Positions 1,422 to 35,811 of a DNA stretch of 39,863 nucleotides are shown here, piece after piece. Under the pieces are notes generated by a model. It saw only the letters and a list, made by a program, of their open reading frames with translations, ran no database searches and had not been told where the DNA came from. A program made the position numbers and the translations under genes. How positions within the stretch are numbered: the first letter of the stretch is position 1; every line of letters begins with the position of its first letter. Source of the stretch: a virus (lineage: Duplodnaviria > Heunggongvirae > Uroviricota > Caudoviricetes); the IMG/VR virus record IMGVR_UViG_2563366928_000005, positions 1 to 39,863 of that record. One strand, given 5' to 3'.

Positions 1422-2114
1422 TTAAAAATCAGCCTGACTCGGGATCAGTTTTTGCCAGATAACTGAAACGTATTTTGCCTGGTAACGGGCGTCATCAAGT
1501 GCATTATGGCGCTCACCTTCGAATGGAATAGCCGTTCTGGCATCGAAGTCTATGGCTTTCCCCAGCTCAACGATTGTGCGTACATCGCGATCGTTGTAGT
1601 AACGCCACGGGCAGGGGATCCCCTGCCGTTCGTATGAACGGCGCAAAATCGTGTTGTCGAAGTTGGCTCCATTTCCCCAAACCTGAACAAAAAATTCACC
1701 GGAGTTTTCGTCGATAAATTCCCGCAATTGTAACAGTGCATCATCTAACGGGATTTCATCGGTCATAATGGCAGATTGCGCTTCGCGTGATTGCTTAAGC
1801 CACCATTTAATGGTGTCCCGATCAATGACTCCGCCAGCAGTTTCCAGATCGATAGTCTTACTAAATTCCGGTCCCATATCTCCGGTTTGCGGATCGAAAA
1901 ATATTGCACCTATTGAGATGATCGGGGCATCAGGATTTTTTCCCATGGTTTCAAGGTCGATCATTAGATGGTCACACGTCCTGCTGGTGGATGTGATTTC
2001 GTGATGACCGTTCACCTTAATTGAGCGATCTGCCGTCTCGCCAGTTTCATTATCGCTATCGTGATGCTGATTGCCGCCAGTGTTCTCCTTGTGTGGATGT
2101 TCAGCGCCTTCCAT
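1422..2114 (-). CDS. DEDDh-type 3'-5' exonuclease (DnaQ-like fold)
   Basis: Exo I motif MIDLETMG and C-terminal H-x4-D motif [10 protein letters not shown] in the translation. Start uncertain: ATG at 2114 has a GGAGG RBS but overlaps the upstream gene by about 100 nt; alternative ATG at 1964. Confidence 0.7.
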
Positions 2115-3808
2115 TTCCTCCGGATCATCTTCCTGAACTTCAACCTGATACTCTTCATCGAATGTTTCCTGGTATGTTGCGCCACTGGTTCAGGCTGTTT
2201 CGTTCCTGGCTCGTTTTGTAACGCATTTGGGCTGTTTTGTTCCGCTTTTTGGTAGTTCCGTTCCGATTCATGCTGGTTCTGGTTCACAGAATCGCGGGTC
2301 TGGATCCCCTTAACCCATTTCGGATCATTCGGGTCACTAATCCCTTCAACAAATTCACCACGTGATGCAGCAAGCAACTTATCGGCGTCAGGCTGGCTGA
2401 TATTGGCTGCCTGCATAATTTTGTTTACTTCGTCAGCGGTAACTTTTATCGGCTCTGGTTGTTCTGAATCTTCAGCGGTATCTACATTTTGCGGTAAGCC
2501 CGTGTATGTGCCATTTTTTCGGGCAAAATATTCTTCTTTTGTGATTTCAGTGGCGCCAGCAGCCAGTGCCTTATCCAGACCAGAAAGTTTGTTTGCGCGA
2601 CCGCATTTTTCTCCGTCCTTATCTGCGAAGAGGAAATAGAACGGCCCCTCACGCTCTACAGATGGTTCAGCTTCCGGCGCGGTTTCATTTTTTGGGATAT
2701 CAGATACCTCAGTTTCCACTGCATCAGTTTGTGTTTCTGATGACTGGAGAACATCAACAGTGCCCAGGTCTGTTTCTTCATTCTCAAACACGCCCTTTGT
2801 CGTCAGGTATTCGCAGATATATTTGTTCAGTGCTATGGGATCTTTGTGAATGTCGATCGGACGCTCACGGACAAGGCCAAAAATAGTTTGGCGGTCGTAG
2901 CGAAGGGCATCAGGCTGTTTGCGCATTGATGCCGAGATACGCTTCCAGTCTTCGCGGTCGTTGTCGATAACTTCATTTTTTGCCCAGCGATGGATGCTGC
3001 CGTCAATGTTTCCGGCATCCACATCACCAGGCCAGAGAGCGTAGGCCAGTTCGTCATCCAGTGTTTTCCATGTCTGCTTGTATTCGCGATGAATGGCAGC
3101 AATGACCGGGCTGATTTTTCCTGTTGAATTTTCAGTGTACTGTTGATTGGCTCTGGCGCGGGCGAGATCAACAACAGACGTGTATTTTCCGGTTTCCTTG
3201 CGTTCACCTTCGCGACGTTTTTTCCAGATGCGCATCTCTGCCTGAATTTCGGGCCATTTAGCACCAGGAATACATTTATGCTTAACCCACCCAATGGCGT
3301 GCAACTTAAGCTCCGGATACATGGCGTTAACTTCTGGCATTTTCATCAACGCTTCAACGATATGTCCGTCGAATGTTGCCATGTCTTCCTGCAACAATTC
3401 CTGTGCGCTAATAACCATATCAACGGTGATGTTTTCACATGTGTCGAACTTAACCATGACAGCGTTCTGTACTTCAGGGGCCAGCTTGTCAAAAGTGACG
3501 TTCATCGGATCGGATTCAGTCTCAACCGGGACAAAGGAAGCAGACTCCTCATCCCAGCGGTTTTCCTGCATATATTCAGCATCCCAGGAATCGAGGGCAG
3601 GGCGGGGTATGCCGGGTTTATCCTCACAGACAATAAATTTATAAGCGCAGTCCTGAGCTGCAGGGAATTGCTCCAGAAATTGCCAATGAAATTTTGCGCG
3701 TGCGCGACGCTCATCACCAGCTTCAATGGCAGTGGCCACCGCAACAGCGCTATCTTCTTTTATGGCCTGTTCATCAGGAATAGCAGCGCAAATAAAGACC
3801 TTACTCAT
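2012..3808 (-). CDS. Large acidic early-region protein, unknown function
   Basis: 598-aa uninterrupted ORF in the early-left operon; no motif I recognise; low-complexity C-terminal tail overlaps the exonuclease ORF. Confidence 0.5.
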
Positions 3809-3903: not shown

Positions 3904-4092
3904 TTATCCAGCCGGTGTTTCGTTATTCAGGTACAGCGATACTTTTTTTAGCGGGAGGCATTCACCAGAAATTTTTTGCTCGTCTCTTGCCTGGAGGCAG
4001 GATTCTTTACTTGCATAAATTCCGGTAATCACATTCTGTGATTCACCCGTTATAAGAAAAACCGTCATCATCAGTGCAAATGCTGAAGTCAT
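3904..4092 (-). CDS. Small protein with hydrophobic N-terminus (kil-position gene)
   Basis: 62 aa; N-terminal hydrophobic stretch FALMMTVFLIT then polar tail with two Cys; position corresponds to kil genes of lambda/Rac. Confidence 0.3.
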   Translation of the reverse strand: MTSAFALMMTVFLITGESQNVITGIYASKESCLQARDEQKISGECLPLKKVSLYLNNETPAG

Positions 4093-4277
4093 TAACGTTC
4101 TCCGAAAATACCAAGTTCAAGAAGAGCAATTCGGGAAAGTATGGAATTATCATTGAGCAGATAAGGCTCATATTTCCTCATATTAATGGCATCTTCAGTA
4201 AACTCCCGGTTACTGAGCAGAACACCAATATCAAAACAACCTTCAGACGTATTAACGTTTGGTAATAACGTTTCCAT
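4092..4277 (-). CDS. Small hypothetical protein
   Basis: 61-aa ORF whose stop abuts the start of the next small ORF (coupling at 4092). Confidence 0.3.
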   Translation of the reverse strand: METLLPNVNTSEGCFDIGVLLSNREFTEDAINMRKYEPYLLNDNSILSRIALLELGIFGER

Positions 4278-4848
4278 TATCGCGTCCTCAACAATGAATT
4301 TTGTGATGCAGTGCCTGGTGCCTCCAGGTGACGTTAACCAGTTAACAATTAACGCCGGGTTAGTTGATGCTCGTTACGCCCGTAAAATACCGCCTTACTG
4401 CTTTAACTGTTCCGCGTGCGCATAGCCGCATTCACCGCATCACAAAATTCACTTTAAAAAGGGCGGCAGAGCAGTCACGGAGTAAAACTGATACCGCCAA
4501 ATGTCACCAGAAAATTGATAACAGAGGGCGTTGTAGCGGGGTTGTCACTTAAGCGTATGGTCAACCTGACAACCCGGTGCATTTTCTGGAGCAATGGAGG
4601 AAACCCCAGCCATACTTACCGCCGCGCCATTTCGCGGAGTGCCACAACCGGAAGCGCACGGTCGAACTAAATTTAACGACACCGTACAGAGAGACCAATT
4701 TCGCCGTGCGCTTTCGCGTTATGCCCTGACTTTTCAGGGACATATCCTTTCAGTAAGCTGTCAGTGCCGGATGCTCACCCGTGTCCGGCGCACGCACTCC
4801 ACCTGACCCGTGGAGAACTCCTTAATTACCAACCCTCAGGAGGGTGAA

Positions 4849-5127
4849 ATGGATAAAAAGCAAATTGAGGCCCTGCAATCTATTATTGAAGAACAAGATG
4901 AAGCTATCAGGATTCTTTCATATCGCACTGATATGATACTAAATATGCTTTCTGCATTAACGGCTGCGCTTGGTGGTACAAAAACAAACGTATACCGCGA
5001 AGTTGTTATTCAACAGATAGATAAATTTGAAAAAACCATACCAGGTATTAATGCTCATCTTGCAGAACAAGAGAAAGACCATGCTCTTATGGCAATTTCT
5101 TCAGTAGCTCTCCCGAAAGTTGAGTAG
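4849..5127 (+). CDS. Hypothetical protein (AT-rich island, convergent with minus-strand operon)
   Basis: ATG at 4849 preceded by AGGAGGG RBS; 92 aa predicted helical; AT-rich codon usage; 3' end overlaps the convergent minus-strand ORF by 41 bp. Confidence 0.45.
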   Translation: MDKKQIEALQSIIEEQDEAIRILSYRTDMILNMLSALTAALGGTKTNVYREVVIQQIDKFEKTIPGINAHLAEQEKDHALMAISSVALPKVE

Positions 5128-5500
5128 TTTTAATTGTTGTTTTGAAATAATCACTGCTTTCACATTTGAGTGATTTCATGGCAATCCAAATGCGGGCCTC
5201 TGTGCCTGCATTTGGTTCCAGTTGCTGTAGACGTTTTGCGTCTTCCAAAAGTAAGGCGATAATGTGTTTCAGCTTCTCATCATTTGCTTGATTCTTGTTT
5301 TCAGGCGAATTCTGTCCGCCGAATAGGCGCTTCTCTTCATACAGACCTATAAAGGCACGACGCACGTTACCGGATATAGTATCGATGGTTTCCTTTTCTA
5401 CGGTACTCAGGTCAAGAGTCGCCAGTTGAGAGCGAACCACATTCGATGCCATTTCCTGGAATGGTACTGGTAAATCTTTAAATTCCATCGTCAACCTCAT
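5087..5500 (-). CDS. Hypothetical protein (second gene of repressor-linked operon)
   Basis: ATG at 5500 overlaps the upstream stop (ATGA); a second ATG at 5488 has a GAGG RBS; about 133-137 aa, no recognised motif. Confidence 0.45.
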   Translation of the reverse strand: MRLTMEFKDLPVPFQEMASNVVRSQLATLDLSTVEKETIDTISGNVRRAFIGLYEEKRLFGGQNSPENKNQANDEKLKHIIALLLEDAKRLQQLEPNAGTEARIWIAMKSLKCESSDYFKTTIKTTQLSGELLKKLP

Positions 5501-5733
5501 CAGTCAGTGTTTCTGGTTAACCAGCGACGCGCGCCAGCTTCAGTTTTAAACGTTTTGCTTCTGGTATACGTCATCGCGGTGAACGTACCGTCCTGGTTGG
5601 GGAACACGCCACATACCAGAGATTCGCTGTTGCCAAGATCGATAGTATCCATGCTGACCTCATTTCCCCTTAACGCCGGGGTAGCGGAACAAAAACCTGC
5701 TGCATAGTTATTAAAGTTGAACCCTGCCGTCAT
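5500..5733 (-). CDS. Hypothetical protein (first gene downstream of repressor)
   Basis: 77-aa ORF following operator-like palindromes at 5838..5875; no Arg-rich motif. Confidence 0.4.
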   Translation of the reverse strand: MTAGFNFNNYAAGFCSATPALRGNEVSMDTIDLGNSESLVCGVFPNQDGTFTAMTYTRSKTFKTEAGARRWLTRNTD

Positions 5734-5837
5734 GTTCTTACGCCTCGGGCTGGCTACTTAACCCCTGACCACTGCCTGGTAACTCGAAGTATTGCCCTGC
5801 ATTCTGTGGGGCGGGGTGGGTTGGTATGAAAAGAAGG

Positions 5838-5875
5838 ATACCCATAGGTATTTAAAAAGTAAATACCCATGGGTA
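5838..5875. promoter_or_regulatory. Operator-like palindromes (candidate leftward early promoter/operator)
   Basis: ATACCCATAGGTAT (5838..5851) and perfect palindrome TACCCATGGGTA (5864..5875); share the ACC..TGGGTA core with sites in the repressor/cro intergenic region. Confidence 0.5.
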
Positions 5876-5917
5876 AATGTTTGCGGTGTCTTAACTGGTG
5901 ACTAGTTGTTTGGTGAG

Positions 5918-6337
5918 CTATGATGCGTTTTGTGCTTTCTTTTTACGGATTTCTTCGTAGATCATATTGTAATACTGTTTTTTCTCTTCAAGAGTTTTTA
6001 ATAATTTATCCGCTTCACTTTCTGGCAGTTCGTCTAAGAGATCTAAAAAAATACGTTGTCGTGGCGTTAGAACCCTTGTTTCATAACTGGAGGCTGTGTT
6101 CGTTGATGATGAAACGATACCATCCATCCATCCCCGGGGTAACCCAAAGGACTCTTCGATAATCTCCACCATATCATCAGCGATCCGTTTTTTTCCCTTT
6201 TTCCCCTCTGGGTACAACATTCTTGATACATAAGAAGGCTCGCGCCCGATCTTTCTGGCCACGTTAACCGCTTTACCATCGCATTTCTCATCACGAATTT
6301 TGATGAGTTGCTGTCGTCTAAATTCATATTTGTCCAT
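5918..6337 (-). CDS. Prophage repressor, XRE/CI-type helix-turn-helix
   Basis: 139 aa; HTH segment KAVNVARKIGREPSYVSRML; divergent from a Cro-like gene across an operator-bearing intergenic region. Confidence 0.7.
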   Translation of the reverse strand: MDKYEFRRQQLIKIRDEKCDGKAVNVARKIGREPSYVSRMLYPEGKKGKKRIADDMVEIIEESFGLPRGWMDGIVSSSTNTASSYETRVLTPRQRIFLDLLDELPESEADKLLKTLEEKKQYYNMIYEEIRKKKAQNAS

Positions 6338-6374
6338 AGGTAAATAATAGATGCGATTACCGCAAGGTAAACAA

Positions 6375-6410
6375 CCTGTGGGTATTGACTTTTGTTTACC
6401 TGTGGGTATT
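6375..6410. promoter_or_regulatory. Operator repeats in the repressor/cro divergent promoter region
   Basis: Two direct copies of ACCTGTGGGTATT (6375..6387, 6398..6410); candidate -35 TTGACT at 6384..6389 reading toward the cro-like gene. Confidence 0.55.
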
Positions 6411-6437
6411 CTTTGCTGTGTTTACTAAGGAGTAGCT

Positions 6438-6719
6438 ATGGAAGAATTAAGAATATTTCTCAATTCTCTTTCGTCAGATGAACAGCGTATGTTTGCATGC
6501 GAGTGTGGTACCAGCATCGGTTATCTAAGAAAGGCATTGAGTAAAGGTCAAGTGTTAGGGGCATCGTTATGTGTCCTTATTGAGCGAGCCAGTAATGGTG
6601 AAGTTACACGTCAGCAACTAAGGCCTTTTGATTGGATGAATATTTGGCCCGAGCTGGAAGATACCAAAACGTTAACACAACCACTTTCTAGGAGCTTGAT
6701 TCATGAAAATCAAGCATGA
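6438..6719 (+). CDS. Cro-like / YdaS-like HTH regulator
   Basis: 93 aa, first gene of the rightward operon divergent from the repressor; HTH-like CGTSIGYLRKALS. Confidence 0.6.
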   Translation: MEELRIFLNSLSSDEQRMFACECGTSIGYLRKALSKGQVLGASLCVLIERASNGEVTRQQLRPFDWMNIWPELEDTKTLTQPLSRSLIHENQA

Positions 6720-7128
6720 ACACATCCGCATGGCGATGAATGCCTGGGCGCGTCCTGATGGCGAAAAAGTTCCAGCAGCTGGAATAACCCAGGCTTATTT
6801 TGAGTTGGGTATGACGTTCCCGGAACTGTATGACGACAGCCATCCGGAAGCCCTGGCTCGCAATACCCAGAAAATTTTCCGCTGGGTAGAGAAAGACACC
6901 CCTGATGCTGTTAAAAAAATGCAGGCTCTGTTACCGGCGATCGAAAAGGCGATGCCGCCTTTGCTGGTGGCCCGTATGCGCAGCCACAGTTCTGAATATT
7001 ACCGTGAGATCGTCGAACGGAGGGATCGGCTGGTGAAGGATGTCGATGATTTTGTTGCGTCAGCGGTTGTTTTGTATGACCAGATGAATCGCGGCGGCCC
7101 GGCAGGGAATGCTGTGGTGATGCACTAA
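6703..7128 (+). CDS. CII-like / YdaT-like regulator
   Basis: 141 aa immediately after the Cro-like gene; size and order match the ydaS-ydaT pair of Rac-type prophages; assignment by position. Confidence 0.45.
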   Translation: MKIKHEHIRMAMNAWARPDGEKVPAAGITQAYFELGMTFPELYDDSHPEALARNTQKIFRWVEKDTPDAVKKMQALLPAIEKAMPPLLVARMRSHSSEYYREIVERRDRLVKDVDDFVASAVVLYDQMNRGGPAGNAVVMH

Positions 7129-7135
7129 AAGCACG

Positions 7136-8113
7136 GTGTTCGGGGGTTTTATGAGCAGCAAGCTTCATGGTCTTGTCTGGGAAGGGTGCGCCTTCACCGG
7201 CATGATCTTATCCAGGGTGGCGGTTATGGCCCGTCTTGCAGACTACAGCAATGACGAGGGCGTGTCATGGCCTGCCATTGAAACTATCCGGCGTCAGATC
7301 GGTGCAAGAAGTGAATCCACAGTGAAATCGGCTATTGCAGAACTGGCGAAAGAGGGCTGGCTGACGAAGGAAGAGCGTAAGATCGGTGGGCGTAATGTAA
7401 GCAATATCTATCGGCTTAATGTGGAAAAACTCGAAGCAGCTGCGGCGGCGGCGCGTGAGTCATATAAACCGAAAAGAAAAATTAGCCCGGCAAAAAATGA
7501 CCCGTTAACAGTTGACCCGTCAAATATTGACCCCTCAACGGTTGACCCGTCAAATTTTGATGGATCAACTGTTGATAAAAAACTGCCGATTAGGGGGGCG
7601 ATGATTGACCCCGATCCGTCAGTATTAAAACCTGATCCGTCAGATAAAAGATCTTCTTGTCCGGACGCTTCGCAACCGGACCCGCAGACGGCTGAACAGG
7701 ATTTTTTAACCCGACACCCTGACGCGGTTGTGTTCAGTGCGAAAAAACGCCAGTGGGGAAGTCAGGAAGATTTGGTGTGCGCACAGTGGATCTGGGGACG
7801 AATCGTGAGTCTTTACGAGCAGGCGGCCAGCTATGATGGCGAGATCACTAGACCGAAAGAACCCAACTGGACAGCATGGGCCAATGACGTTCGCACAATG
7901 CGGATGCTGGATGGCAGAACTCACAGACAAATTTGTGAAATGTTTGGGCGTCTCCAGCGGGATTCGTTCTGGGTAAAAAACATCATGAGTCCGGCAAAAC
8001 TCCGGGAAAAATGGGATGAACTGGTTATCCGCCTGGGGCGTTCGCCTGCGCAGCGTTGCGTGAATCACATTTCTGAACCGGACACTGAAATACCGCCGGG
8101 ATTCAGGGGGTGA
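7136..8113 (+). CDS. Replication initiator, lambda O-like (winged-helix N-terminus, iteron-containing)
   Basis: 325 aa; gene contains 15-bp periodic direct repeats (7498..7572) encoding a repeated DPxxVDPSN peptide, as lambda O contains ori. Confidence 0.7.
   Translation: MFGGFMSSKLHGLVWEGCAFTGMILSRVAVMARLADYSNDEGVSWPAIETIRRQIGARSESTVKSAIAELAKEGWLTKEERKIGGRNVSNIYRLNVEKLEAAAAAARESYKPKRKISPAKNDPLTVDPSNIDPSTVDPSNFDGSTVDKKLPIRGAMIDPDPSVLKPDPSDKRSSCPDASQPDPQTAEQDFLTRHPDAVVFSAKKRQWGSQEDLVCAQWIWGRIVSLYEQAASYDGEITRPKEPNWTAWANDVRTMRMLDGRTHRQICEMFGRLQRDSFWVKNIMSPAKLREKWDELVIRLGRSPAQRCVNHISEPDTEIPPGFRG
7498..7572. repeat. Iterons of a putative phage replication origin inside the O-like gene
   Basis: Four to five tandem 15-bp units, consensus TGACCCGTCAAnnnT, followed by GATCCGTCAG repeats and an AT-rich stretch (to about 7650). 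Confidence 0.65.
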
Positions 8114-10939: not shown

Positions 10940-11176
10940 TTTTATGGATCACCTTTCTGATTGATTTCATATTGGCGAGGTGACGTGAGTTAAGTAGAAT
11001 GGCTGCGGGTGCTTGAGGCTATCTGTCTCAGGCATGAACACTGAAAGGCAGATAGAGAAAAGCCCCAGTTAACATTTCGCGTCCTGCAAGACGCTTAACA
11101 TTAATCTGAGGCCCAATCTATGTCTCACAAATGTAGGTTAGCCTCTTACGTGCCGAAAGGCAAGGGGAAGCAGGCT

Positions 11177-11332
11177 ATGAAGCAGCAAAAGGCGATGTTA
11201 ATCGCCCTGATCGTCATCTGTTTAACCGTCATAGTGACGGCACTGGTAACGAGGAAAGACCTCTGCGAGGTACGACTCCGAACCGGCCAGACGGAGGTCG
11301 CTGTCTTCACAGCTTACGAACCTGAGGAGTAA
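11177..11332 (+). CDS. hok: Hok/Gef-family type I toxin
   Basis: MKQQKAMLIALIVICLTVIVTALVTRKDLCEVRLRTGQTEVAVFTAYEPEE is nearly identical to HokD/RelF as I recall it; followed by a strong terminator. Confidence 0.85.
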   Translation: MKQQKAMLIALIVICLTVIVTALVTRKDLCEVRLRTGQTEVAVFTAYEPEE

Positions 11333-15493: not shown

Positions 15494-15543
15494 AACGGAT
15501 GAGATTGCAGAATTAATTACGCACCATTATTATTCTGCTCCCG

Positions 15544-15618
15544 GCCCTTTAGCTCAGTGGTGAGAGCGAGCGACTCATAATCGCCAGGTCGCTGGTTCAA
15601 ATCCAGCAAGGGCCACCA
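15544..15618 (+). tRNA. tRNA with CAT anticodon, most similar to tRNA-Ile2 (lysidine type); Met not excluded
   Basis: Cloverleaf folded by hand: acceptor GGCCCTT/AAGGGCC, D-arm, anticodon loop CTCATAA, T-arm GCTGG-TTCAAAT-CCAGC, encoded CCA. Confidence 0.85.
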
Positions 15619-15625
15619 TCACATA

Positions 15626-15702
15626 CCGCCATTAGCTCATCAGGAAAGAGCGCCAGCTTTCGAAGCTGGTTGCGCGGAGTTCGGGTCCCCGAAGGCGGTC
15701 CA
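15626..15702 (+). tRNA. tRNA-Arg-like (anticodon TCG), imperfect stems; possibly degenerate
   Basis: Acceptor CCGCCAT/AAGGCGG has one A-A mismatch; anticodon stem CCAGC/GCTGG, loop TTTCGAA; T-stem has one mismatch and atypical loop TTCGGGT; CCA encoded. Confidence 0.5.
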
Positions 15703-15715
15703 TTATCTGTATCCT

Positions 15716-15792
15716 GCGTTGTTAGCTCAGCCGGACAGAGCAATTGCCTTCTAAGCAATCGGTCACTGGTTCGAATCCAGTACAACGCGCCA
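15716..15792 (+). tRNA. tRNA-Arg (anticodon TCT)
   Basis: Acceptor GCGTTGT/ACAACGC, anticodon stem-loop ATTGC-CTTCTAA-GCAAT, T-arm ACTGG-TTCGAAT-CCAGT, encoded CCA. Confidence 0.9.
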
Positions 15793-15835: not shown

Positions 15836-16052
15836 TCTCACAATTCAGGCGGTTGACTGTTGTCTGGTTTGCGGGGAGTTTGTTAAAAGAAACTGGCATG
15901 GTGAATCCCCCTGTGCGGAGGGGCAATCAGCGAGTAGGTATATGGGATAATCGCGGATTCAGGTGCTGGTACTGAATTCACCGGGAGGCACCCGGCACCA
16001 TGCAATGGCACATAGCGCCACTCTCCAGCCCCTCTCCGGAGGGGCTTTTCTG
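15836..16052 (+). repeat. Promoter/terminator-like module, copy 1
   Basis: Blocks shared with copy 2: CTCACAATTCAG + TTGACT (15853..15858), TTTGTTAAAA, GCATGGTGAATCCCCCTG-GCGGAGGGGC hairpin, CACCGGGAGGCACCCGGCACCATG, terminator-like CCCCTCTCCGGAGGGGCTTTT (16029..16049). Confidence 0.6.
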
Positions 16053-16240
16053 TGCCGGATACATCACAGTTTCTGGAACCTTAGGTACTACAGTATCAGT
16101 CAGGGTGCTATATTTTCAGATGTGATGAAAGCCTGTCAGCAGGCAGGGCGTATCGGAAATGACCCAGTAGAGAAAACGTTGACTCAGATACCGGTGCTGA
16201 GTTACCGGGAAACCGGCATCACATGACCGCTATCCTTCCA

Positions 16241-16304: not shown

Positions 16305-16540
16305 CTCACAATTCAGTAAGTTGACAGTTGCCTGTCAGACTGGGCATTTGTTAAAAAAATTTCGCATGGTGAATCCCCCTGAGCGGAGGGGCGACTGGTG
16401 ACGGTATAATCTCTGATTATCAAAACGAGAATGACGCGGGTTTAGTGGCACCGGGCTGAACTCACCGGGAGGCACCCGGCACCATGTGCATGATGATACA
16501 GATACGCGGCTTTAGCCCCTCTCCGGAGGGGCTTTCTTAT
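16305..16540 (+). repeat. Promoter/terminator-like module, copy 2
   Basis: Same five blocks as copy 1; consensus TTGACA at 16321..16326 and TATAAT at 16405..16410 (too far apart to pair); terminator-like hairpin at 16516..16538. Confidence 0.6.
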
Positions 16541-16766
16541 GGACAAAAAAAGCCCGCGCTGGGAGACGCGGGCGGCAAGGAATAAACAATAAAACGTGAA
16601 GTAATATTTCAGCTGGCGAATAATACCCCATAGTAATCACTCTGCGCAACTGCGCGGTCTTTTTCGAATTGCGGGCTGTAGTCTCCCTTCTGCCATTGTC
16701 CTGTAACTTCCGGACTTCAGCCTGCTCCTTATCTGACTCACAACATTATCCCGCCCGGGAGGATTC

Positions 16767-35485: not shown

Positions 35486-35811
35486 AAACATTTCGCTGGA
35501 AAGTGAAGCCGGATATGGAGGTGAACTCGCAGCCATCGGTGCGTGAAGTGCGTTTTGGTGACGGGTACTCACAGCGTATGGCGGCAGGGCTGAATGCTGA
35601 CCTGAAAACATACAGGGTGACGCTTTCCGTGACCCGGGAGGAGGCCCGGCATCTGGAAGCGTTCCTGGCAGAGCACGGTGGCTGGAAGGCATTTTTGTGG
35701 AAGCCACCCTATGCATACCGGCAGATAAAGGTGACCTGTACCGGGTGGTCTGCGCGGGTCGGGATGTTGCGCGTTGAGTTCAGCGCGGAGTTTAAGCAGG
35801 TGGTGAACTGA
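35482..35811 (+). CDS. M: Minor tail protein, gpM-like
   Basis: 109 aa, same length and position as lambda gpM. Confidence 0.85.
   Translation: MKTFRWKVKPDMEVNSQPSVREVRFGDGYSQRMAAGLNADLKTYRVTLSVTREEARHLEAFLAEHGGWKAFLWKPPYAYRQIKVTCTGWSARVGMLRVEFSAEFKQVVN

What the first reader, a model, noticed from the sequence alone, without database searches (positions are those of the whole stretch)
5838..6410. Shared operator motif on both sides of the repressor gene
The ACC..TGGGTA motif occurs twice as direct repeats between the repressor and Cro-like genes (6375..6387, 6398..6410) and twice as palindromes just beyond the repressor stop (5838..5851, 5864..5875), upstream of the unknown 77-aa/133-aa operon. 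This suggests the repressor controls a second promoter driving that operon, like a leftward early promoter with the unknown genes in place of N.
Basis: seen in the sequence. Interest (0 to 1): 0.4.

Follow-up and report, generated by a model that had tools for sequence, protein, structure and literature searches.

The report
Prophage repressor operators flanking its gene
The repeated motif is real: it is the 12-bp binding site (TACC-N4-GGTA) of this E. coli prophage's repressor, present three times at the repressor/cro switch and twice over a leftward promoter for a DicF/DicB cell-division-inhibitor operon, which is the ordinary lambda-type OR/OL layout.

Summary
The motif is a 12-bp palindrome, TACC-N4-GGTA. 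It has four exact copies in 39.9 kb against 0.24 expected, plus one copy with one mismatch, and all five lie around the repressor gene. Two lie 43 nt past the repressor stop (OL2 5864-5875, OL1 5839-5850).

In 25 loci, counting the window, that encode the same DNA-binding domain, a pair 24-26 bp apart lies downstream of the repressor. The first site abuts a TTGACA-like -35. The second supplies the TA of a TAtnnT -10. In the viable phage mEp043 the same pair precedes nutL and gene N.

The "unknown" operon is a Qin-type dicBF operon: ydfA, a 137-aa ORF, DicF RNA, DicB and DUF1482. The repressor is a chimera of an mEp043-type DNA-binding domain and a DicA-type C-terminal tail, with no S24 peptidase domain.

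The OL pair also folds into a 16-bp hairpin with a U-rich tail. Terminator features are not conserved in relatives.

Verdict: an ordinary lambdoid OL/PL, a new member of a known kind, of low-to-moderate interest. No binding or transcription was measured.

The parts
5839..5850 (.). OL1 operator, TACCCATAGGTA. It overlaps the spacer and the first two bases of the -10 of the leftward promoter.
   Evidence: Exact motif. It is the second member of the pair conserved in 25 loci.
5864..5875 (.). OL2 operator, TACCCATGGGTA, a perfect palindrome. It abuts the -35 of the leftward promoter.
   Evidence: Exact motif. Spacing to OL1 is 25 bp, as in relatives.
5835..5863 (-). Predicted leftward promoter (PL, the dicBp analogue). 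-35 TTTACT at 5863..5858, 17-nt spacer, -10 TATCCT at 5840..5835, predicted start near 5827-5828.
   Evidence: Read from the sequence. Only 8 of 12 consensus matches, so the scanner did not list it. The same layout holds in 25 loci, with column counts T24 T21 G16 A21 C14 for the -35 and T24 A23 T17.. T24 for the -10. It mirrors PR.
5839..5875 (-). 16-bp hairpin in the repressor-sense RNA, formed by OL2, the spacer and OL1, followed by UCCUUCUUUUC. A possible secondary terminator for the repressor transcript.
   Evidence: Terminator-like hit. Hairpin of about -21 kcal/mol (-21.4 folded alone); the 111-nt context folds to -23.4 kcal/mol, z = -4.9. Neither the strength nor the U-tract is conserved in relatives.
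5918..6337 (-). Repressor gene, 139 aa: an XRE-type HTH domain (residues 1-75), a disordered linker, and a DicA-like helical C-terminal tail. No S24 peptidase domain.
   Evidence: phrog_5736 transcriptional regulator, 6e-70. The N-terminal domain is 65-82% identical to S24-type prophage repressors. The C-terminus is 33% identical to DicA residues 84-129, E 2e-7. AlphaFold2 model pLDDT 88; fold matches to XRE-type HTH proteins and to the SPC32H Rep repressor.
6358..6369 (.). OR3 operator, TACCGCAAGGTA. It overlaps the -35 and spacer of the repressor's own promoter.
   Evidence: Exact motif. Conserved at -33/-32 from the repressor ATG in relatives, with a variable centre.
6373..6384 (.). OR2 operator, AACCTGTGGGTA (one mismatch). 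It lies between the -35 elements of PR and PRM.
   Evidence: Conserved at -48/-47, and the imperfect half-site (GGTT) recurs in most relatives.
6397..6408 (.). OR1 operator, TACCTGTGGGTA. It overlaps the spacer and -10 of PR.
   Evidence: Exact motif. Conserved at -73/-71.
6385..6412 (+). Predicted PR: TTGACT, 16-nt spacer, TATTCT. It drives the cro-like and ydaT genes.
   Evidence: Promoter scan, 9 of 12.
6344..6371 (-). Predicted PRM: TTTACC, 16-nt spacer, TATTAT. The -10 ends 6 nt before the repressor ATG and there is no Shine-Dalgarno sequence, so the mRNA is probably leaderless.
   Evidence: Promoter scan. A -10-like hexamer ends 6-7 nt before the ATG in the eight relatives read by eye; this was not scored across all loci. 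Leaderless cI and paaR2 are precedents (PMC8630535).
6438..6719 (+). Cro-like regulator, 93 aa.
   Evidence: phrog_35 and a weak YdaS Pfam hit. Homologues at 43-73% identity sit divergently next to the repressor in 19 related loci.
6703..7128 (+). YdaT, a CII-like regulator. It lies outside the immunity cassette and is shared with other immunity types.
   Evidence: Pfam YdaT, phrog_163, mosaic pattern.
5500..5652 (-). ydfA-like gene (DUF1391), the first gene of the leftward operon. The 77-aa ORF that runs up to 5733 is probably over-extended.
   Evidence: Pfam DUF1391, 93 bits, on residues 29-75. RefSeq places the start at 5652. The K-12 ydfA start aligns there, preceded by a GAGG.
5087..5500 (-). 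137-aa ORF of unknown function, the second gene of the operon.
   Evidence: phrog_1363. RefSeq calls it hypothetical.
4461..4512 (-). DicF small RNA.
   Evidence: Rfam RF00039, 77 bits against a gathering score of 48.
4092..4277 (-). dicB, the cell-division inhibitor gene.
   Evidence: RefSeq annotation of the 99.9%-identical locus.

Best explanation
The window is an E. coli lambdoid prophage, and 5827-6720 is its immunity cassette.

The 139-aa repressor probably acts as a dimer. It has an XRE-type helix-turn-helix domain and recognises the 12-bp palindrome TACC-N4-GGTA (14 bp with the flanks, TTACC..GGTAA).

At the right-hand switch:
- OR1 and OR2 cover the -10 and flank the -35 of PR, so bound repressor shuts off the cro-like and ydaT genes.
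- OR2 is centred about 41 bp upstream of the repressor's own start, where it could activate PRM.
- OR3 overlaps the PRM -35, where it could autorepress.
- The repressor mRNA is probably leaderless.

Just past the repressor stop, OL2 abuts the -35 (TTTACT) and OL1 overlaps the spacer and -10 (TATCCT) of a leftward promoter. That promoter starts near 5827 and transcribes ydfA, the 137-aa ORF, DicF, DicB and DUF1482. Repressor bound at the two sites, 25 bp apart (OR1-OR2 are 24 bp apart), excludes RNA polymerase. This keeps the toxic division-inhibitor operon silent in the lysogen.

The Cro-like protein, which is inherited together with the operators, probably uses the same sites.

The repressor has a DicA-type tail instead of an S24 peptidase domain. 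Derepression is therefore expected to need an antirepressor or a stochastic switch rather than RecA-stimulated self-cleavage.

What is shown: the motif, its enrichment, its positions, and conservation of the operator-promoter architecture. What is inferred: binding, repression, cooperativity, transcription start sites, and the induction route.
For: - Enrichment. There are 4 exact sites against 0.24 expected, all within 570 bp around the repressor gene. Across 27 loci (163.9 kb) there are 91 exact sites against 2.5 expected, and 88 of them lie in the OR or OL positions.
- OR positions. Sites lie at fixed distances from the repressor ATG (-73, -48, -33) across Enterobacterales, Aeromonas and a few Betaproteobacteria.
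- OL/PL architecture. It is conserved in 25 loci, with -35 and -10 consensus columns and a 17-18-nt spacer in 24 of the 25.
- mEp043. Its OL pair lies between a terminator and nutL/gene N.
- Specificity. Three loci whose repressors are only 30-38% identical have no sites. The residues of the putative recognition helix (S35, Y36, R39, M40) are invariant in the alignment.
- PL and PR are mirror images of one another.
- The mosaic junction with three other immunity types falls at about 5826.
- Close relatives (L036-L038) keep TACC and GGTA while the centres and flanks change.
- The operon's identity rests.
- Experimental precedents with the same layout are Qin DicA/dicBp (PMC10448788) and CP-933P PaaR2/PL933P (PMC8630535).
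Against: - No binding, footprint, transcription-start or reporter data exist for this repressor family. I found no paper on its operators.
- The window's PL hexamers are weak (TTTACT and TATCCT, 8 of 12), and the generic promoter scan did not report them.
- Only two OL sites are present, against three in lambda, Qin and CP-933P.
- The same 37 bp also looks like a terminator, so part of its conservation in close relatives could serve RNA structure.
- Three of the related loci (L003, L025, L041) show no clear OL pair in the DNA fetched.
Confidence: 0.87

Rival explanations
1. The two downstream palindromes act mainly as an intrinsic terminator. In the repressor-sense RNA they form a 16-bp hairpin followed by UCCUUCUUUUC, which would end the repressor (PRM) transcript and keep it from reading into the toxic dicBF-type operon. 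In the weaker form of this idea, they are both operators and a terminator.
For: - The terminator scan reports 5875..5839 on the minus strand, with 16 pairs and a T-rich tail.
- The hairpin is worth about -21 kcal/mol (-21.4 folded alone). Its 111-nt context folds to -23.4 kcal/mol, z = -4.9, and only 1 of 200 shuffles folds as well.
- It begins only 43 nt after the repressor stop, and the gap holds no other terminator. mEp043, by contrast, has a separate GC-rich terminator before its OL.
- Close relatives L036-L038 keep the two centres complementary, including one compensatory change.
Against: - The motif is shared with the OR sites, and in relatives the pair lies 43 to 1837 nt from the repressor stop. 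That fits a promoter-operator, not a terminator.
- Hairpin energy in relatives is only -5 to -16 kcal/mol.
- The U-tract is absent in L036 and weak in L037/L038.
- The stem has only 5 G-C pairs and the tail is interrupted by C.
- Because the centres follow a YRYR pattern, two sites pair fully about one time in three by chance (my calculation, based).
Confidence: 0.15
2. The downstream sites are auxiliary operators only. They help repression at OR by DNA looping over about 530 bp, or block read-through as a protein roadblock. On this view no promoter lies over them, and the ydfA-DicF-DicB operon is transcribed from somewhere else.
For: - The window's PL hexamers are weak and the promoter scan missed them.
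- Looping between OL and OR is established for lambda (cited in PMC8630535).
Against: - -35 and -10 hexamers at fixed register to the two sites are conserved in 25 loci.
- In mEp043 no other promoter candidate lies between the pair and nutL/N.
- The module mirrors PR.
- The analogous promoters dicBp and PL933P are experimentally active and repressed (PMC10448788, PMC8630535).
Confidence: 0.06
3. The repeats are a chance occurrence, or a relic of a duplication with no function.
For: None beyond the small size of the motif (8 specified bases).
Against: - 4 sites against 0.24 expected, with 0 of 100 shuffles reaching 4.
- 88 of 91 exact sites in 27 loci fall in the same two places.
- TACC and GGTA are kept while centres and flanks diverge.
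Confidence: 0.01

Closest known systems
Qin cryptic prophage of E. coli K-12: DicA / DicC / dicBp controlling ydfABC-dicF-dicB-ydfDE (PMC10448788)
   Same: - The gene order is the same: short repressor, then a repressor-controlled promoter right after its stop, then ydfA ... DicF ... DicB ... a small lysis-type gene.
- The repressor is about 135-139 aa, has no S24 domain, and has a homologous C-terminal helical tail (33% over 46 aa, E 2e-7; NCBIfam DicA model hit below its cut-off).
- The operators flank the -35 and overlap the -10.
- The ydfA leader and start codon are shared.
   Different: - The DNA-binding domain shows no detectable similarity, and the operator sequence differs: TACC-N4-GGTA here, TGTTAG...CTAACA-type repeats in Qin.
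- There are two OL sites here; three are reported for Qin.
- The Cro-like protein is not DicC (tblastn E 0.21).
- No homologue of the Rem antirepressor is in the window.
- ydfB and ydfC are replaced by a 137-aa ORF.
- This prophage carries a nearly full lambdoid gene set, with some disrupted genes: the recE-like deletion in the window, and pseudogenes and IS/intron insertions in the AR_0013 copy.
Bacteriophage lambda OL/PL - cI - OR/PRM/PR - cro
   Same: - Divergent repressor and cro genes with three operators between them.
- The same operator is repeated at an outward-facing leftward early promoter.
- OR2 lies about 41 bp upstream of the repressor's start.
- The repressor mRNA is probably leaderless.
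- Adjacent sites are 24-25 bp apart.
   Different: - The operator is 12-14 bp rather than 17 bp.
- There are two OL sites rather than three.
- OR2-OR3 spacing is 15 bp.
- There are no rexAB genes, so OL and OR are only about 530 bp apart.
- No N gene or nutL follows PL in the window.
- The repressor lacks the S24 self-cleavage domain.
Phage mEp043 cI (S24-type) and its many prophage relatives
   Same: - The N-terminal DNA-binding domain is the same (65% over 86 aa; 65-82% in other relatives).
- The operator motif and the OR spacing (-72, -47, -32) are the same, and there is an OL pair 25 bp apart.
- The Cro-like protein is homologous in 19 of the genome loci L002-L030; mEp043's own Cro was not compared.
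   Different: - mEp043 cI is 228 aa and has a Peptidase_S24 domain, so it is presumably SOS-cleavable.
- Its PL drives nutL and N.
- A separate terminator precedes its OL.
CP-933P prophage: PaaR2 / YdaS / YdaT with PL933P (PMC8630535)
   Same: - The repressor is non-canonical, the partners are YdaS-like and YdaT, and the repressor mRNA is leaderless.
- A second promoter, PL, carries OL operators and was shown by reporter assays to be repressed by both the repressor and the Cro analogue.
   Different: - The repressor family and the operators differ (18-bp palindromes there).
- In CP-933P the repressor is co-transcribed with a toxin-antitoxin pair.
- Its OL has three sites.

Membership tests
Lambdoid immunity region (OL/PL - repressor - OR - cro) | Divergent repressor and cro-type genes, separated by an intergenic region with multiple copies of one operator that overlap two face-to-face promoters | tested here: met
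   Three TACC-N4-GGTA sites lie in the 100-bp gap. PR and PRM were found by the scan. The layout is conserved in relatives.
Lambdoid immunity region (OL/PL - repressor - OR - cro) | The same operator is repeated at a second, leftward early promoter on the far side of the repressor gene | tested here: met
   OL1 and OL2 lie at 5839-5875, in register with -35 and -10 hexamers. The same pair precedes nutL/N in mEp043.
Lambdoid immunity region (OL/PL - repressor - OR - cro) | The repressor physically binds these operators and represses both promoters | not testable with these tools
   Needs EMSA or footprinting and reporter fusions. The only support is co-variation of the DNA-binding domain with the motif.
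Lambdoid immunity region (OL/PL - repressor - OR - cro) | The repressor carries a C-terminal S24 (LexA-like) self-cleavage domain | tested here: not met
   No Pfam hit even at E <= 10. The C-terminus is DicA-like. S24 is present in mEp043 cI.
Lambdoid immunity region (OL/PL - repressor - OR - cro) | An N antiterminator gene and nutL follow PL | tested here: not met
   The first genes after PL are DUF1391/ydfA and a 137-aa ORF with no N-like match. I saw no boxB-like element in the leader, by eye only.
Qin-type DicA/dicBp control of a dicBF operon | The downstream operon contains ydfA, DicF RNA and dicB | tested here: met
   DUF1391, 93 bits. DicF, 77 bits against a gathering score of 48. dicB and DUF1482 are annotated in the 99.9%-identical RefSeq locus.
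Qin-type DicA/dicBp control of a dicBF operon | The repressor is DicA (NCBIfam NF007257, full length) | tested here: not met
   Only residues 86-136 match, at 24.5 bits against a cut-off of 101. BLASTP aligns only the C-terminal 46 residues.
Qin-type DicA/dicBp control of a dicBF operon | A DicC-type Cro and a Rem antirepressor are present | tested here: not met
   tblastn of DicC and Rem against the window gives E = 0.21 and >= 0.37.
mEp043-type repressor DNA-binding domain family (no Pfam model) | N-terminal domain of about 75 aa, MDKYE..REPSYVSRMLY..KRIADDM..LPRGWMD, with invariant residues in the putative recognition helix | tested here: met
   65-82% identity to S24-type relatives. Invariant S35, Y36, R39, M40. 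XRE-type HTH fold.
Rho-independent (intrinsic) terminator | A stable stem-loop followed directly by a U-tract, at the 3' end of a gene | tested here: inconclusive
   A 16-bp stem with 5 G-C pairs, about -21 kcal/mol, with the tail UCCUUCUUUUC, 43 nt after the stop. The U-tract and stem strength are not conserved.

The most novel reading that the evidence does not exclude
The 37 bp at 5839-5875 may be dual-coded. As DNA it would be the OL1/OL2 operator pair of PL. As RNA, in the repressor transcript, it would be an intrinsic terminator that insulates the toxic DicF/DicB operon from read-through from the repressor's promoter.

This short-tailed lineage has lost the separate terminator that mEp043 keeps. 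The centres of the two operators stay complementary in the closest relatives. A related, less exotic reading is that this DicA-tailed, S24-less repressor shares operator specificity with SOS-cleavable mEp043-type repressors. It could then give SOS-proof immunity against such phages.
Probability: 0.15. Interest if true: 0.45.

Novelty: new member of a known kind. Interest (0 to 1): 0.25.

Why it matters
The analysis gives a precise, testable operator map for a prophage immunity type found in about 820 of 5,426 complete E. coli genomes. The map covers consensus, positions, promoters and probable transcription starts.

More broadly, it covers a family of repressor DNA-binding domains that has no Pfam model and that I did not find studied. 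The family reaches from Enterobacterales to Aeromonas and some Betaproteobacteria.

It also shows that a DicF/DicB cell-division-inhibitor operon can sit under a repressor of a different specificity from DicA. That repressor is built by joining an mEp043-type DNA-binding domain to a DicA-type tail. This matters for predicting cross-immunity and the conditions under which DicB and DicF are expressed.

Conceptually it is the textbook lambda arrangement, so it answers no open question.

Tried and rejected
- Generic promoter scan. It found PR and PRM but not PL, which scores 8 of 12. I kept PL because of family-wide conservation.
- Sequence search of the repressor against PDB. There were no meaningful hits; the best E-value was 0.078, to Z-alpha domains.
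- Pfam on the repressor and on its N-terminal domain, at E <= 10. Nothing was found.
- DNA search of the phage collection with 5000-7200. Only the mosaic flanks matched (ydfA leader, ydaT), never the repressor or the operators. A protein-mode search was needed to find mEp043.
- Search for a Rem-type antirepressor, DicA or DicC in the window. Only the DicA C-terminal tail matched. The RefSeq annotation of the near-identical prophage lists no antirepressor.
- Literature. Papers that mention mEp043 do not treat its operators, judging by titles and abstracts only.
- Terminator-only explanation. Rejected as the main function because the pair's distance from the repressor stop varies from 43 to 1837 nt and the U-tract is not conserved.
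- Hairpin complementarity as evidence of selection on RNA. Judged inconclusive, because YRYR centres pair by chance about one time in three.
- One-mismatch motif copies elsewhere in the window. Their number is within chance.
Full report
**1. What is in the sequence**

The window is an E. coli lambdoid prophage. It is 99.9% identical to a prophage next to ompW in strain AR_0013.

The genes around the finding are these:
- A 139-aa repressor gene at 5918-6337 on the minus strand.
- A divergent 93-aa Cro-like gene at 6438-6719.
- A YdaT/CII-like gene at 6703-7128.
- Downstream of the repressor on the minus strand, a DUF1391/ydfA-like gene and a 137-aa ORF.

ACCNNTGGGTA matches at four places, giving 5 matches against 0.21 expected.

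The better description is a 12-bp palindrome, TACC-N4-GGTA. It has exactly four perfect copies in the 39,863-bp window: 5839-5850, 5864-5875, 6358-6369 and 6397-6408. Only 0.24 are expected, and none of 100 shuffles reached four. A one-mismatch copy lies at 6373-6384.

There are two more sites 43 nt past the repressor stop.

**2. Promoters**

The scan finds two promoters:
- PR on the plus strand: TTGACT at 6385, a 16-nt spacer, then TATTCT ending at 6412.
- PRM on the minus strand: TTTACC at 6371, a 16-nt spacer, then TATTAT ending at 6344.

OR1 overlaps the PR spacer and -10. OR2 lies just upstream of the PR -35 and about 41 bp upstream of the repressor ATG. OR3 overlaps the PRM -35.

The PRM -10 ends 6 nt before the ATG and there is no Shine-Dalgarno sequence. 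The repressor mRNA is therefore probably leaderless. This is inferred, with lambda cI and paaR2 as precedents (PMC8630535).

On the minus strand past the repressor stop the sequence reads TACCCATGGGTA|TTTACT|TTTTAAA|TACCTATGGGTA|TCCT. That is OL2, then a -35, then a 17-nt spacer that contains OL1, then a -10 (TATCCT) whose first two bases are the last two of OL1.

With 8 of 12 consensus matches this promoter falls below the scanner's threshold. It is nevertheless the mirror image of the PR module, as inverted repeats I1 and I2 show.

**3. Comparative test**

The repressor's N-terminal 75 residues are 65-82% identical to the N-termini of many 220-242-aa LexA-family (S24) prophage repressors. 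I fetched 29 genome loci.

*Right-hand switch.*
- Most of the 26 loci whose DNA-binding domain is at least 49% identical carry TACC-N4-GGTA sites, exact or with one mismatch, at -73, -48 and -33 from the repressor ATG.
- A Klebsiella group lacks OR2, and L025 and L027 depart from this pattern.
- The window's sites are at -71, -47 and -32.

*Leftward promoter.*
- In 25 loci, counting the window, a pair 24-26 bp apart lies 43 to 1837 nt downstream of the repressor stop.
- The hexamer after the first site has column counts T24 T21 G16 A21 C14.
- The hexamer that begins with the last TA of the second site has T24 A23 T17 . . T24.
- The spacer is 17-18 nt in 24 of the 25, and 16 nt in L020.

*Enrichment.* Across 27 loci (163.9 kb) there are 91 exact sites against 2.5 expected, and 88 of them lie in these two places.

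*Specificity.* The three loci with only 30-38% identity have no sites. The residues of the putative recognition helix (S35, Y36, R39, M40) are invariant.

*Cro.* A homologous Cro-like gene sits divergently in 19 loci.

*Site centres.* The centres follow YRYR at OR1, OR2 and both OL sites but vary at OR3. This would suit a weaker autoregulatory site, though that is inference.

**4. A viable phage with the same operators**

Phage mEp043 has a 228-aa S24-type cI with this DNA-binding domain.
- Its OR sites are at -72, -47 and -32.
- Its OL pair (L035 4596 and 4621) follows a separate GC-rich terminator.
- The pair precedes TAGACA...TATATT, a boxA/boxB nutL and gene N.

That is a PL by position.

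Yersinia locus L040 likewise has the pair upstream of an ORF with a faint N_peptide Pfam hit.

Close relatives of the short repressor are L036 (Salmonella) and L037/L038 (E. coli, 92%). They keep TACC and GGTA while the centres and flanks differ.

**5. Cassette boundaries**

Prophages with LexA-like, RacR or other HTH repressors share near-identical DNA with the window from ydfA up to about 5826. They diverge completely from there until about 6700.

The junction coincides with the predicted +1 of PL. OL/PL therefore belongs to the immunity cassette, together with the repressor, OR and cro. The other types appear, by eye only, to carry their own repeats at the same place.

**6. What the promoter drives**

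The operon is not unknown. It holds these genes:
- ydfA-like (DUF1391). The true start is probably 5652, as in K-12, which makes it 50 aa rather than 77.
- The 137-aa ORF.
- DicF RNA at 4461-4512 (Rfam, 77 bits).
- dicB at 4092-4277.
- A DUF1482 gene.

This is the Qin dicBF operon type. Its promoter, dicBp, lies right after dicA and is repressed by DicA through operators. Deleting dicA raised expression 22-fold, and DicA is relieved by the antirepressor Rem (PMC10448788). CP-933P shows the same logic experimentally, with PaaR2/YdaS and PL933P (PMC8630535).

**7. The repressor**

The AlphaFold2 model has a mean pLDDT of 88. It shows a helical HTH domain (residues 1-75), a disordered linker (77-86) and a helical hairpin (92-138).

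Fold matches are XRE-type regulators, at 2-3 Å over about 70 residues. The whole chain matches the antirepressor-controlled Rep of Salmonella phage SPC32H only weakly (E 7e-4).

The C-terminal 46 residues are 33% identical to those of DicA (E 2e-7; NCBIfam DicA model hit below its cut-off). There is no S24 domain.

The protein is therefore a chimera of an mEp043-type DNA-binding domain and a DicA-type tail. Induction by RecA-stimulated cleavage is unlikely. No Rem homologue is in the window, so the induction route is open.

**8. The terminator rival**

OL2, the spacer and OL1 fold in the repressor-sense RNA into a 16-bp hairpin followed by UCCUUCUUUUC. Folded alone it is worth -21.4 kcal/mol. 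Its 111-nt context folds to -23.4 kcal/mol, with z = -4.9. The 43-nt gap after the stop holds no other terminator.

Against a conserved terminator role:
- Relatives have weaker hairpins (-5 to -16 kcal/mol).
- The distance from the stop varies widely.
- The U-tract is missing in L036 and weak in L037.
- YRYR centres pair by chance about one time in three.

I keep a lineage-specific dual role as a minor possibility, at about 0.15.

**9. Verdict**

The feature is an ordinary lambdoid OL/PL for a previously uncharacterised operator type. It is a new member of a known kind. Binding, repression and transcription starts remain to be shown experimentally.

Noticed in passing
window 4461-4512 (-), 4092-4277 (-), 3904-4092 (-): DicF small RNA (Rfam, 77 bits), dicB and a DUF1482 gene lie downstream of the 'unknown' genes. 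The leftward operon is therefore a Qin-type dicBF cell-division-inhibitor operon.
   Followed up: yes
window 5918-6337 (-): The repressor is a domain chimera. Its N-terminal DNA-binding domain is shared with S24-type cI repressors such as mEp043's and has no Pfam model. Its C-terminal 46 residues are homologous to the DicA tail. RefSeq annotates the protein only as 'hypothetical protein'.
   Followed up: yes
window 5652-5826 (-): The roughly 175-nt leader between the predicted PL start and the ydfA ATG is almost invariant among prophages of four different immunity types (alignment A2). The junction with divergent sequence falls at the predicted +1. Why the leader is so conserved was not examined; possibilities include RNA structure, processing, or the small upstream ORF of the 77-aa reading frame.
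   Followed up: partly
window 4810-5127 (+): A 105-aa ORF (phrog_18692; RefSeq hypothetical, 4849-5127) lies antisense within the leftward operon. Its 3' end overlaps the end of the 137-aa ORF (5087-5127), so the two are convergently transcribed.
   Followed up: no
window ~2175-2181: Relative to strain AR_0013, the window has a deletion of about 85 bp inside the recE-like exonuclease gene. It splits the gene into ORFs 2012-3808 and 1422-2114, so it is probably a pseudogene here.
   Followed up: partly
window 11007-11182, 15543-15789, 15867-16057, 16335-16544 (+): Rfam finds a sok antitoxin RNA (next to hokD in the RefSeq copy), three tRNA genes and two copies of the sRNA STnc100 in the late-regulatory region.
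   Followed up: no
window 35716-35727 and 35739-35750: Two one-mismatch copies of the operator pattern lie 23 bp apart in the tail-gene region. The total count of one-mismatch copies outside the immunity region is within chance.
   Followed up: no
L005, L007, L009-L011 (Klebsiella loci): A Klebsiella subgroup with the same DNA-binding domain lacks OR2 and the homologous Cro-like gene. It has a different intergenic layout, with OR1 at -73 and, in L009-L011 only, OR3 at -33. It still keeps the OL pair.
   Followed up: no
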